A stretch of DNA of 59,212 nt from Candidatus Nomurabacteria bacterium (GTDB lineage Bacteria; Patescibacteriota; Minisyncoccia; Phycocordibacterales; UBA9973): contig JACPLQ010000001.1 of NCBI GenBank assembly GCA_016186435.1, forward strand, positions 1-59,212. Direction: 5' to 3'. This document shows positions 43,457-59,171 of the stretch, piece by piece; within the stretch, counting starts at the first letter, position 1, and every line of letters starts with the position of its first letter. Position numbers and translations under genes: made by a program. The notes beneath the pieces were generated by a model. It was not told the origin of the DNA, made no database searches, and saw nothing but the letters and a program-made list of their open reading frames with translations.

Positions 43457-43529
43457 AGCCGGCACGAGGGTTCGAACCCCGGACATCCACTTTACAAAAG
43501 TGGCGCTCTACCAACTGAGCTATGCCGGC
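43457..43529 (-). tRNA. tRNA-Thr(UGU)
   Basis: GCCGGCA acceptor, GCTC-AGTTGGTA-GAGC D arm, CCACT-TTTGTAA-AGTGG anticodon arm, CGGGG-TTCGAAC-CCTCG T arm. Confidence 0.9.
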
Positions 43530-43773
43530 AAATTATATTCTTTCTATTTCTTAAATAATTTCTCCCAAACCCTGTTTTTAATGCTTTCTCTCTTCCAACT
43601 GCTTTTTTCTTATCACAACAAGCTTCATAATACACTAATTCAAACGGACGTCTACTTTTTGTTATTTCCACCAATCCTTTGTTGTGTTCCTTTAAACGTT
43701 CTTTTAGATTAGAAGAAAACCCTATGTAAAGTTCGTTATCTTTTTTACTTTTTAAAATGTAAGTATAAAACAT
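43492..43773 (-). CDS. GIY-YIG (YhbQ/URI-like) nuclease-domain protein; the 3' end of the ORF reads through into the tRNA
   Basis: FYTYILKSKKDNELYIGFSSNLKERLKEHN...REKALK. The last ~12 codons overlap tRNA-Thr and are probably fortuitous. Confidence 0.75.
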   Translation of the reverse strand: MFYTYILKSKKDNELYIGFSSNLKERLKEHNKGLVEITKSRRPFELVYYEACCDKKKAVGREKALKTGFGRNYLRNRKNIICRHSSVGRAPLL

Positions 43774-43830
43774 AATTTTTCTCTGCCAACTCCTGCCCGC
43801 AATGCCTTCAGCATAGCTGATGCAGGCGGG

Positions 43831-51225: not shown

Positions 51226-51280
51226 GGCCTGTCCGCCTTTGGAGGAGGATTTAGGGGTTGTATTTTTCTCGGATATTGCT

Positions 51281-51327
51281 ATACCCCCACACTTATTTTT
51301 TTTGACTTATAATAAGTGTGGGGGTAT
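51281..51327. repeat. perfect 17-bp inverted repeat between tgt and the decarboxylase gene, with -35/-10-like hexamers in its loop
   Basis: atacccccacacttatt-ttttttgacttat-aataagtgtgggggtat. Confidence 0.8.
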
Positions 51328-51343
51328 ACTGGTTTTTAATTCA

Positions 51344-53220: not shown

Positions 53221-53260
53221 CGAAAATCCCCCGCCTGAAGCAGGGGATTTTCGTTTTTTT
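53221..53260. terminator. bidirectional terminator (11-bp stem cgaaaatcccc/ggggattttcg plus a T-run)
   Basis: Read directly from the sequence. It sits between the DUF192 gene (+) and the rnpB 3' end (-). Confidence 0.7.
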
Positions 53261-53340
53261 GCAGGCGCTTGTAAGCCGAATTCTGTTTTATGATAGCAAT
53301 TTGTCTAGGTCTAAAATTACTCTTAGACTCATGCGATTCT

Positions 53341-53373
53341 CCCCCTCACCAATTTAGAAAATTGGTGAGGGGG
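53341..53373. repeat. hairpin ccccctcaccaattt-aga-aaattggtgaggggg within rnpB
   Basis: 15-bp arms, nearly identical to the second rnpB hairpin. Confidence 0.85.
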
Positions 53374-53485
53374 CACGATCTTGCACACGCGTAAGGATTT
53401 TGCCGTTTCACTCCCACTAAAGGGATTCGTCACTGTTCGCACCTCGTGGATTGCTCCAGGCGGGGGTTACCCGCTACGTTTAACC

Positions 53486-53513
53486 CCTCCCCAATTTGTA
53501 AAAATTGGGGAGG
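53486..53513. repeat. hairpin cctccccaattt-gtaa-aaattggggagg within rnpB
   Basis: 12-bp arms. Confidence 0.85.
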
Positions 53514-53625
53514 CACTGTGTGTTCGGACTTTCCTCCCTTCGACTTCGCTCAGGGCAAGCCCCAAACGAAACCAAAAAGTAGCTATCCGGCGCCTGCATC
53601 TGTATTATAGCATAAAACCTAAAAA

Positions 53626-53645: not shown

Positions 53646-53681
53646 CTTGCATTATTTTTTATAATATGCTATACTTCCGGC

Positions 53682-53756
53682 GTGAGTGTGAGGTAAAACT
53701 CACTCTATACATATAACAATATATGTGCCGCAAAGGACGCCTTCGGGCGTTTTTTG
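53682..53756 (+). ncRNA. candidate small RNA of about 75 nt
   Basis: Extended -10 TGCTATACT at 53667-53675. Hairpins gtgagt/actcac and acatata/tatatgt. Terminator acgcc-ttcg-ggcgt plus ttttt. No ORF. Confidence 0.35.
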
Positions 53757-58953: not shown

Positions 58954-59024
58954 TGGACTCACCGGGAATCGGACCCGGGACTCGTCATTGCGAACGACGC
59001 GTAATGCCACTTTACTATGAGCCC
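58954..59024 (-). tRNA. tRNA-Ala(CGC) with G3:U70; T loop TCCGATT (C55); no encoded CCA
   Basis: Acceptor GGGCTCA/TGAGTCC, D arm GTAA-AGTGGCA-TTAC, anticodon arm CGTCG-TTCGCAA-TGACG, T arm CCGGG-TCCGATT-CCCGG. Confidence 0.65.
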
Positions 59025-59047
59025 CTCACATGCGCGCATGTGAGGGG
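59022..59047. repeat. perfect 26-nt palindrome cccctcacatgcgcgcatgtgagggg abutting the tRNA-Ala(CGC) 5' end
   Basis: It is flanked by the direct repeat ctatgagccc (59015-59024 and 59048-59057). Confidence 0.85.
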
Positions 59048-59171
59048 CTATGAGCCCGCCACATGGCAACAGTTAGTATATTTTATTTTAAGGAGAAAGG
59101 CAAAACAAAAAACGGCCAGATTTTAGTTGCAATGTAGTTAAAATAATATAGAATATCTGAGTTCAACACTC

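What the first reader, a model, noticed from the sequence alone, without database searches (positions are those of the whole stretch)
53341..53513. RNase P RNA carries two nearly identical palindromic hairpins of the same family
Within rnpB (minus strand) there are two helices, CCTCCCCAATTT-TTAC-AAATTGGGGAGG (53486-53513) and CCCCCTCACCAATTT-TCT-AAATTGGTGAGGGGG (53341-53373). They differ by one base pair in the shared part. They also resemble the CCCCTCTCCATTT...AAATGGAGAGGGG elements in rnr and trmD. Two independent peripheral helices of a ribozyme should not share sequence unless they derive from the same inserted element. The palindromic family therefore also colonises structural RNA.
Basis: partly seen in the sequence, partly recalled or inferred. 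Interest (0 to 1): 0.6.

Follow-up and report, generated by a model that had tools for sequence, protein, structure and literature searches.

The report
Twin palindromic hairpins in RNase P RNA
Two outer helices of the tRNA-processing ribozyme of this tiny uncultured bacterium carry copies of one short palindromic hairpin cassette, an example of a wider habit in its genus of copying short hairpins between the outer helices of this essential RNA.

Summary
rnpB (53256-53598, minus strand; RF00010, 105.5 bits) contains two perfect hairpins. H1 (53486-53513, 12 bp) lies between P5 and P7. H2 (53341-53373, 15 bp) is the P15/16 arm. Their arms match at 11 of 12 positions.

All 120 rnpB genes retrieved from the genus have a hairpin at both sites, but it is usually 6-7 bp and unrelated in sequence. 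The sister species G127 and G150 lack the cassette. Four non-sister species carry it at H2, and one of them, G092, also carries a decayed copy in P3. Only G000 has it at H1. G145 is an independent twin case built from a different palindrome.

Across P3, H1, H2 and P19, helices within one gene share sequence about three to four times more often than helices compared between genomes (p about 1e-5).

The cassette ranks first of 432 rnpB hairpins in likeness to G000's CCCCTCTCC palindromes. Carrier genomes are rich in those palindromes. However, the cassette has only two arm blocks, no target duplication, and its exact core occurs only in rnpB.

Verdict: common origin is supported. Membership of the ORF-invading family is only partly supported. 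Earlier notes of this scan describe similar rnpB inserts in other CPR genomes. This is a new variant of a known kind, of moderate interest.

The parts
53256..53598 (-). rnpB, a reduced type-A RNase P RNA (343 nt). P13/P14 and P16/P17/P6 are absent and P12 is a short rump.
   Evidence: RF00010 at 105.5 bits against a gathering score of 100, covering model positions 1-367. The fold has z = -6.2.
53486..53513 (-). H1: a perfect 12-bp hairpin with loop UUAC, lying between P5 and P7 (the P5.1-like / J5-7 site). It is an ectopic copy of the cassette.
   Evidence: It is an insert after model position 72. P5 and P7 are 94-100% paired with compensatory changes across 120 genus rnpBs. Genus hairpins at this site have a median of 6 pairs, and G000's 13 pairs place it among the top 6 of 120. 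Its best match anywhere is the G053 H2 hairpin.
53341..53373 (-). H2: a perfect 15-bp hairpin with loop UCU that forms the distal P15/16 arm. This is the cassette at its usual site.
   Evidence: It aligns to model positions ~224-270. The same cassette sits at this site in G053, G092, G096 and G005. The genus median at this site is 7 pairs.
53518..53522 (-). P5 5' strand (CACAC). It pairs with 53384-53388 (GUGUG).
   Evidence: Covariation count; coordinates.
53474..53478 (-). P7 5' strand (CGUAG). It pairs with 53390-53394 (UUACG).
53376..53380 (-). P15 5' strand (GAUCG region). Together with 53333-53340 (AGAAUCGC) it forms the invariant flanks of the H2 cassette site.
   Evidence: The flanks GCAAGAUCG and AGAAUCGC are conserved in all genus rnpBs.
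53534..53579 (-). P3, extended to a G.U-rich helix of about 20 bp. It is a third enlarged peripheral helix of a different sequence type.
   Evidence: Fold. Genus P3 segments are typically 16-20 nt.
59022..59047 (.). A sibling palindrome, CCCCTCACATGC-GC-GCATGTGAGGGG, with the same outer arm CCCTCAC. It sits between two copies of GGGCTCATAG, the first 10 nt of tRNA-Ala.
   Evidence: Sequence read. The same palindrome lies in rnpB P3 of G001 and in P3 and H1 of G056.

Best explanation
H1 and H2 are native peripheral helices of a streamlined type-A RNase P RNA: the hairpin between P5 and P7, and the P15/16 arm. Their distal parts have been overwritten by two copies of one short palindromic cassette, CCTC[A/C]CC-AATTT-loop-AAATT-GG[T/G]GAGG.

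The cassette is a two-arm variant of the C-rich, AT-cored palindromes that are abundant in this genome. It is exchanged among rnpB genes of the genus at the H2 site, and in G000 it was copied a second time into H1. A palindrome is transcribed into a perfect hairpin in either orientation, so landing at the tip of an existing helix only lengthens that helix. The ribozyme core (P4, P5, P7, P8, P15 and their flanks) is untouched.

What is shown: the placement, the native but hypervariable nature of both sites, the patchy distribution of the cassette, and the general excess of hairpin sharing within one gene.

What is inferred: the copies arise at the DNA level, either by insertion or by template switching or gene conversion between hairpins; the hairpins stay in the mature RNA; and they are functionally neutral.
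For: Placement:
- One search gives the covariance-model alignment.
- One search shows P5/P7 covariation in 120 genes.

Sites are native but variable:
- All 120 genus rnpBs fold a hairpin at both sites (median 6 and 7 pairs), with unrelated sequences.

The cassette is transferable:
- It is present at H2 in G053, G092, G096 and G005, and in decayed form at P3 in G092.
- It is absent from the sister species G127 and G150 (RpoB tree support 96/93 and 100/99).
- The five carriers need five changes on the rnpB-core tree, and their monophyly is rejected (AU p = 3.8e-5).
- G000 H1 shares an identical 18-nt core, loop included, with G053 H2.

Replicates:
- G145 carries twin CCAGCNCCACTTT hairpins at H1 and H2, which its sister G050 lacks at H1.
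- G056 has P3 = H1, G164 and G137 have H2 = P19, and G014 and G094 have three helices alike.
- Within-genome sharing at SW >= 14 is 14 observed against 3.4 expected (p = 1.6e-5).

Link to the genome family:
- H2 and H1 rank 1st and 2nd-4th of 432 in similarity to G000's CCTCTCC hairpins.
- Their arms are the CCTC[ACT]CC motif shared by about 40 inverted-repeat elements in G000.
- Carrier genomes have a median of 13 CCCTCTCC..GGAGAGGG hairpins against 1 in the other genomes (p = 1.3e-5). G000 has 23, G127 has 2 and G150 has 0.

Tolerance:
- At most 9 of 41 tRNA genes encode CCA, so the L15-CCA contact of canonical type-A RNAs is probably dispensable here. That last step rests on established RNase P knowledge and is an inference.
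- CPR RNase P RNAs are known to have extended or missing helices (PMC8172020).
Against: - The exact core CCAATTT..AAATTGG occurs nowhere else in G000, and in G053, G092 and G005 it occurs only in rnpB. No donor copy outside rnpB was found.
- There is no target-site duplication at either hairpin, unlike the sibling palindrome at tRNA-Ala.
- The hairpins have two arm blocks, not the three of TM/BoxC or the four of G000's nested elements.
- The lack of G.U pairs in 27 pairs is not significant (p = 0.10), so the data do not separate DNA-level palindromy from RNA-level pairing.
- The carrier-versus-count test and the within/between test are not corrected for relatedness.
Confidence: 0.6

Rival explanations
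1. The copy was made purely inside the gene, with no mobile element. H1 was overwritten from H2, about 140 nt away in the same gene, by replication template switching or ectopic gene conversion seeded by the similar C-rich/G-rich stem bases. The H2 cassette itself moves between species only by homologous recombination of rnpB through its invariant flanks.
For: - The cassette core is confined to rnpB in all five species.
- There is no target duplication.
- In G014, 3 of 5 genome-wide TCCGAC..GTCGGA hairpins lie in rnpB; in G008 it is 2 of 2, and in G009 2 of 3.
- Within-gene sharing is general across all six site pairs.
- H2 has perfectly conserved flanks.
- rnpB type is discordant with the RpoB tree although synteny is kept.
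Against: - The arms carry the signature motif of the genome-wide palindromes.
- Carriers are palindrome-rich genomes.
- Other hairpin types found in rnpB helices are dispersed repeats elsewhere: TCCGAC has 22 copies in G020, CGCCGATGAGGCG has 10 in G164, and CTCACATGC sits beside tRNA-Ala with a duplication in G000.
- The discordance between rnpB and species trees is only borderline (AU p = 0.066).
Confidence: 0.27
2. The likeness is a functional convergence. The two hairpins are alike because both must bind the same partner (a lineage-specific protein, or each other) in the RNase P holoenzyme, replacing the lost P6/P16/P17 contacts.
For: - H1 and H2 occupy exactly the two regions that pair with each other as P6 in canonical type-A RNAs. 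This rests on established RNase P structure and is an inference.
- The one arm difference is compensated.
- A precedent, recalled from memory, is that archaeal RNase P RNAs carry several L7Ae-binding K-turns.
Against: - There is no general H1-H2 likeness in the genus: mean SW is 5.4 within genomes against 5.0 between.
- The sister species do without the cassette.
- The loops (UUAC, UCU) are not complementary.
- The same cassette sits at P3 plus H2 in G092, and other cassettes link other site pairs, so no fixed pair of sites is involved.
Confidence: 0.08
3. The likeness is chance or compositional convergence. Stable hairpins in an AT-rich genome tend to have C-rich/G-rich bases and AT-rich tips, and the match is accidental.
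For: Many genus hairpins at these sites begin with CCCC/GGGG. The G.U test is not significant.
Against: - Shuffle test: 9 of 20,000.
- Cross-genome null: 0.085%.
- The 18-nt core, loop included, is identical to that of G053 H2.
- The core is expected 0.01 times per window and observed twice.
Confidence: 0.05

Closest known systems
STRR repeats inside rnpB of heterocyst-forming cyanobacteria (Vioque 1997, Nucleic Acids Res 25:3471; cited through the reference list of PMC2858038; the paper itself is not held)
   Same: A genome-wide short repeat family sits inside a peripheral helix of a functional bacterial type-A RNase P RNA gene and lengthens it.
   Different: STRRs are tandem heptamer arrays in one helix (P12, from memory). 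Here there are single palindromic hairpins in two different helices, with near-identical copies. The exact cassette is not found outside rnpB.
Rickettsia palindromic elements (RPE)
   Same: These are palindromic elements that insert in frame into protein genes and also into a stable-RNA gene: of 526 RPEs in R. bellii, 53 are in ORFs and 1 is in the tmRNA gene (PMC1458961). G000 likewise has palindromes both in ORFs and in rnpB.
   Different: RPEs are roughly 100-150 bp and high-copy, with recognisable families. The rnpB cassettes are 25-33 nt, have two copies, and differ in subtype from the in-ORF copies.
TM / BoxC / PIT intrastrand-triplex repeats (Holder et al. 2015, PMC4666352)
   Same: Both have homopyrimidine/homopurine arms of the form CCCTCNCCC / GGGNGAGGG. 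H1 and H2 arms contain CCTC[C/A]CC / GG[G/T]GAGG.
   Different: The TMECO consensus needs three blocks and loops of 3-6 nt, and the E. coli copies are always intergenic. H1 and H2 have two blocks, a 13-14-nt AT-rich palindromic interior, and lie inside a gene.
Diverged CPR RNase P RNAs with extended or missing helices (Lui et al. 2021, PMC8172020)
   Same: That work covers CPR genomes, including class Paceibacteria. It reports missing P13/P14/P16/P17 and 'large extensions of helices', including an extended P15.
   Different: That study does not report repeated cassettes or sequence sharing between helices.
P5.1 of type-B (Bacillus-type) RNase P RNA
   Same: It is a hairpin inserted between P5 and P7, combined with a simple P15 hairpin and loss of P6/P16/P17 (from memory of Haas and Brown 1998).
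   Different: The gene scores as type A. No P10.1 or P15.1 was seen. The hairpin sequence is hypervariable in the genus, so no conserved docking role is evident.

Membership tests
Bacterial RNase P RNA class A (RF00010) | Covariance-model score at or above the gathering threshold over the full model | tested here: met
   105.5 bits against 100, model positions 1-367, E = 2.8e-31.
Bacterial RNase P RNA class A (RF00010) | Universal P4 strands (GAGGAAAGUCC and ACAGAAUUCGGCUUA) and the P5/P7 helices | tested here: met
   Both motifs are present. P5 and P7 are 94-100% paired with compensatory changes in 120 genus genes.
Bacterial RNase P RNA class A (RF00010) | P15-L15-P16-P17 arm with the P6 pseudoknot and the GGU loop that binds CCA | tested here: not met
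   The arm is a single perfect hairpin flanked by GUG and A. There is no P17 or P6 partner. At most 9 of 41 tRNA genes encode CCA.
TM / BoxC / PIT intrastrand triplex motif | Three consecutive blocks CCCTCNCCC-N3-6-GGGNGAGGG-N3-GGGNGAGGG | tested here: not met
   The consensus comes from PMC4666352. H1 and H2 have one pyrimidine and one purine block, 13-14 nt apart, with no third block in the flanks.
G000's nested CCTCNCCCC/CCCCTCTCC palindromes (the in-ORF family) | Arms of the form CCTC[A/C/T]CC / GG[T/G/A]GAGG with an AT-rich palindromic interior | tested here: met
   H2 ranks 1st and H1 2nd-4th of 432 genus rnpB hairpins.
G000's nested CCTCNCCCC/CCCCTCTCC palindromes (the in-ORF family) | A second, outer pair of arms (four-block architecture) and several copies of the same subtype | tested here: not met
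   The flanks are conserved rnpB sequence. The CCAATTT core has no other copy in the genome.
MITE / RPE-like mobile palindromic element | Target-site duplication at the insertion | tested here: not met
   Neither hairpin is flanked by direct repeats. The sibling palindrome at tRNA-Ala does have a 10-nt duplication.
MITE / RPE-like mobile palindromic element | Presence/absence polymorphism at orthologous sites, independent of phylogeny | tested here: met
   Sister species lack the cassette. Five carriers need five changes on the rnpB-core tree, and their monophyly is rejected at p = 3.8e-5.
Intervening sequence (IVS) of stable RNA, excised by RNase III | Removal from the mature RNA; a long (about 20 bp or more) processing stem | not testable with these tools
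Type-B P5.1 helix | A hairpin between P5 and P7 | tested here: met
Type-B P5.1 helix | Co-occurrence with P10.1 and P15.1 and a conserved docking loop | tested here: inconclusive
   No such helices are evident in the alignment. The RF00011 alignment could not be viewed because overlapping matches within a clan are suppressed.

The most novel reading that the evidence does not exclude
In this genus the outer helices of RNase P RNA (P3, the P5/P7 hairpin, P15/16 and P19) behave as interchangeable cassette slots. Short hairpins are copied between helices of one gene and between species by a DNA-level, hairpin-directed process tied to the genome's palindrome families, whose abundance tracks DUF559 nuclease genes. 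An essential ribozyme is thus continually remodelled without losing function.
Probability: 0.3. Interest if true: 0.65.

Novelty: new variant of a known kind. Interest (0 to 1): 0.45.

Why it matters
The finding shows how much sequence turnover an essential ribozyme tolerates at its periphery. It also gives a natural experiment: 120 related rnpB genes with swapped helices, which show which parts of RNase P RNA are free to vary.

It explains in part why CPR RNase P RNAs score near or below Rfam thresholds. G000 scores 105.5 against a threshold of 100, and 64 of the 150 other genus genomes fall below the cut-off or are missed.

If the copy-and-paste process is hairpin-directed, rnpB would be a compact reporter locus for studying how short palindromes spread in reduced genomes.

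Tried and rejected
- **Longest common substring** as a measure of H1-H2 likeness was too crude, since a single mismatch breaks it. It was replaced by Smith-Waterman scores.
- **G.U-pair test** for DNA-level palindromy. The genus G.U frequency is 8.2%, so the probability of no G.U in 27 pairs is 0.10, which is not informative.
- **Target-site duplications** at H1 and H2: none found.
- **Kissing or complementary loops** between H1 and H2: none. There is also no genus-wide H1-H2 likeness.
- **High-copy family for the cassette core.** It is not one. CCARTTT-N-AAAYTGG has about one hit per genome in 47 of 151 genomes, and about 21 genomes hit with the backwards control pattern. At least one hit of the related pattern CCACTTT-N-AAAGTGG is the anticodon arm of tRNA-Thr (G000 43487-43503).
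- **The 115-120-nt module with CCAATTTTG/CAAAATTGG ends.** It sits at H2 in G055, G081, G093 and G110b, and at H1 in G021 and G121. It is a possible parent of the G000 hairpins, but it is single-copy per genome and the link rests on 8-9 shared bases only. It remains a lead.
- **GIY-YIG cassette at tRNA-Thr** (43531-43830): it has no CCAATTT-like wrapper.
- **C15:15321-15353 hairpin** (CCCCTCCCCACTTTT..), the nearest non-rnpB relative of H1, is intergenic and not in a known RNA.
- **Vioque 1997 full text** is not held.

Full report
**What is there.** The window carries one RNase P RNA gene on the minus strand, 53256-53598 (RF00010, 105.5 bits against a gathering score of 100, full model). It has a TGnTATAAT promoter just upstream and a hairpin terminator just downstream (sequence read).

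- H1, 53486-53513: CCUCCCCAAUUU-UUAC-AAAUUGGGGAGG, 12 bp.
- H2, 53341-53373: CCCCCUCACCAAUUU-UCU-AAAUUGGUGAGGGGG, 15 bp.

Both persist in the MFE and centroid folds of the whole 343-nt RNA. The shared 12-nt arm differs at one position, and the change is compensated on the other arm.

**Is it more than chance?** Yes.
- The core CCAATTT-N(2-6)-AAATTGG is expected 0.01 times in the window and occurs twice, both times here. It occurs nowhere else in the 706-kb genome.
- Only 9 of 20,000 shuffles of the H1 arm match H2 as well.
- With the genus as an empirical null, an H1-versus-H2 local alignment score of 18 or more occurs in 2 of 109 genomes (G000 and G145), against 10 of 11,772 cross-genome pairs.

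**Where the hairpins sit.**
- The Rfam alignment puts H1 in an insert after model position 72, between the 5' strands of P5 and P7. It puts H2 on the P16/P17 arm.
- I checked P5 (CACAC/GUGUG) and P7 (CGUAG/UUACG) in 120 rnpB genes of the genus. They are 94-100% paired, with compensatory pair types at four positions. H1 therefore lies at the J5/7 site, which type-B RNAs fill with P5.1.
- H2 is bounded by the invariant strings GCAAGAUCG and AGAAUCGC.
- The RNA lacks P13/P14 and P16/P17/P6. Lui et al. report the same for CPR RNase P RNAs, together with 'large extensions of helices' including P15 (PMC8172020).
- At most 9 of 41 tRNA genes encode CCA. I infer from this that the L15-CCA contact is dispensable and the arm is free to vary.

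**Relatives.** The genome is a 706-kb, 41% G+C CPR assembly; earlier notes of this scan call it Nomurabacteria. I retrieved rnpB from 120 species of the genus.
- Every one folds a hairpin at both sites. The median is 6 pairs at H1 and 7 at H2, and the sequences are unrelated. G000's hairpins are among the longest. The helices are therefore native and their content is not.
- The H2 cassette recurs at the H2 site in four other species:
  - G053: CCCTCACCAATTT-TTAC-AAATTGGTGAGGG
  - G092: CCATCACCAATTT-AAAA-AAATTGGTGATGG
  - G096: CCCTCACCAGTTTAA-CT-TTAAACTGGTGAGGG
  - G005: CTCTTACCAGTTTAATTAAACTGGTAAGGGG
- A decayed copy also sits in P3 of G092.
- G000's H1 matches G053's H2 (SW 26, an 18-nt core identical including the loop) better than its own H2 (SW 19). 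G000 is the only one of the 120 species with this cassette at H1.

**Phylogeny.**
- On an RpoB tree G000 is sister to G127 (support 96/93), and G150 joins next (100/99). Neither has the cassette at either site. The carriers sit elsewhere.
- On a tree of the rnpB core with H1 and H2 masked, the five carriers need five changes, and their monophyly is rejected (AU p = 3.8e-5).
- The cassette therefore moves independently of both the species and the rest of the gene.

**A general habit of the genus.**
- G145 is an independent twin: H1 is CCAGCCCCACTTT-TTAC-AAAGTGGGGCTGG and H2 is CCAGCACCACTTT-ATAAA-AAGTGGTGCTGG. Its sister G050 has the palindrome only at H2.
- G056 has the same CCCTCACATGC palindrome in P3 and H1. 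G164 and G137 have identical H2 and P19. G014 and G094 have TCCGAC-loop-GTCGGA in three helices.
- Over all six pairs of the sites P3, H1, H2 and P19, within-genome scores of 14 or more number 14 against 3.4 expected from cross-genome pairs (p = 1.6e-5). Scores of 12 or more number 28 against 9.2 (p = 4.5e-7).
- These tests are not corrected for relatedness, although relatives enter both sides of the comparison.

**Link to the genome-wide palindromes.** G000 has about 40 inverted-repeat elements with arms CCTC[A/C/T]CC / GG[T/G/A]GAGG. They include the nested CCTCNCCCC-CCCCTCTCC-AT-rich-GGAGAGGGG-GGGGNGAGG elements, several of which lie inside long ORFs.

For the link:
- H1 (CCTCCCC) and H2 (CCTCACC) use these same arms.
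- Among 432 peripheral rnpB hairpin segments of the genus, G000 H2 and H1 rank 1st and 2nd-4th in similarity to G000's 23 CCTCTCC hairpins. Their scores are 19 and 18 against a median of 6-7.
- The count of CCCTCTCC-N(4-20)-GGAGAGGG hairpins per genome ranges from 0 to 33, and 44% of genomes have none. G000 has 23, its sisters have 2 and 0, and the eleven genomes with CCA- or CAC-type cassettes in rnpB have a median of 13 against 1 for the rest (p = 1.3e-5).
- That count also tracks DUF559 gene copies (Spearman 0.54, p = 9e-13).

Against full membership:
- The TMECO consensus needs three blocks and short loops (PMC4666352). H1 and H2 have two blocks.
- Their flanks are conserved rnpB sequence, with no target duplication.
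- The exact core is rnpB-only.

Related observations:
- A sibling palindrome with the same outer arm (CCCCTCACATGC..GCATGTGAGGGG, 59022-59047) sits between two copies of the first 10 nt of tRNA-Ala. The same palindrome lies in rnpB helices of G001 and G056.
- Other hairpins seen in rnpB helices are dispersed repeats in some genomes: TCCGAC has 22 copies in G020, and CGCCGATGAGGCG has 10 in G164. In others they are concentrated in rnpB: 3 of 5 in G014 and 2 of 2 in G008.

**Mechanism.** The best reading (confidence 0.6) is that a short palindromic cassette, a two-arm variant of the genome's C-rich palindromes, overwrote the tips of two native helices. A palindrome gives a perfect hairpin in either orientation, so the helix is only lengthened and the core is spared.

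The main rival (0.27) is that no mobile element is needed. On that reading H1 was copied from H2 by template switching or gene conversion inside the gene, and H2 cassettes pass between species by recombination through the invariant flanks. The rnpB-only core, the absence of target duplication and the rnpB-concentrated hairpins favour this rival. The two are not exclusive.

A functional reading, with a common binding partner or a replacement of P6, is weak (0.08). The sister species lack the cassette, there is no genus-wide H1-H2 likeness, and other site pairs are involved elsewhere. Chance is disfavoured (0.05).

**Comparison with what is known.**
- Repeats inside rnpB are known from heterocystous cyanobacteria (STRR; Vioque 1997, cited).
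- Palindromic elements that invade both ORFs and a stable-RNA gene are known from Rickettsia (1 of 526 RPEs lies in the tmRNA gene; PMC1458961).
- Diverged CPR RNase P RNAs with extended helices are described.
- Earlier notes of this scan report similar inserts in rnpB of other CPR genomes.
- What is new here is the twin copy in two helices, its replication with a different palindrome in G145, and the statistical excess of within-gene hairpin sharing across a whole genus.
- I rate it a new variant of a known kind, interest 0.45.

**Limits.**
- Trees of a 260-column RNA are weak.
- Several tests ignore relatedness.
- The family link rests on short motifs.

Noticed in passing
window 53256-53598, compared with G127:C1 and G150:C9 (L172, L174): rnpB falls into two deep types in the genus (a 56/64 split with 99% support). 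G000 has type I while its RpoB sisters G127 and G150 have type II. Synteny is kept and the flanking DNA is about 80% identical, against 72-76% for rnpB. This suggests lateral replacement of rnpB, but the AU test is only borderline (p = 0.066).
   Followed up: partly
window 53534-53579 (-): P3 of G000 is itself enlarged to a G.U-rich helix of about 20 bp. It contains CUGAGCGAAGUCGAAGG, which resembles segments of H2 modules in other species (G055, G045).
   Followed up: no
window 59015-59057: The palindrome CCCCTCACATGC-GC-GCATGTGAGGGG is flanked by two copies of GGGCTCATAG, the first 10 nt of tRNA-Ala. This looks like an insertion with target duplication. The same palindrome occurs in only 5 of 151 genus genomes, and in two of them it lies inside rnpB.
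   Followed up: partly
H2 of G055, G081, G093 and G110b (L091, L122, L075, L078); H1 of G021 and G121 (L108, L127): A structured 115-120-nt module with ends CCAATTTTG...CAAAATTGG and internal repeats occupies H2 in some species and H1 in others. It is single-copy per genome. Its closing stem resembles the core of G000's hairpins.
   Followed up: partly
G000:C3:15301-15654; also G050:C8, G096:C27, G118:C2, G068:C11, G042:C23, G134:C84, G010:C43, G104:C14: DUF559 domains lie inside uninterrupted reading frames of roughly 1000-1150 aa, as if inserted in frame into large proteins.
   Followed up: no
window 53646-53734: The promoter-to-terminator unit next to rnpB is 77-80% identical in G127 and G150, as conserved as the neighbouring protein gene. 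This is consistent with a real small RNA.
   Followed up: no
genus survey: 29 of 150 genus genomes gave no RF00010 match at E <= 0.001, and 35 more scored below the gathering threshold. Large helix inserts may hide rnpB from the model.
   Followed up: no
whole genome G000: At most 9 of 41 tRNA genes encode the 3' CCA.
   Followed up: partly
G000:C1:11468-11519, window 51280-51328, G000:C28:3988-4030, G000:C20:14642-14670; G054 H2, G145 P3: A further palindrome family, (TATA)CCCCCACAC[C/T]TATT..., is dispersed in G000. Versions of it fill rnpB helices in G054 (H2) and G145 (P3).
   Followed up: no
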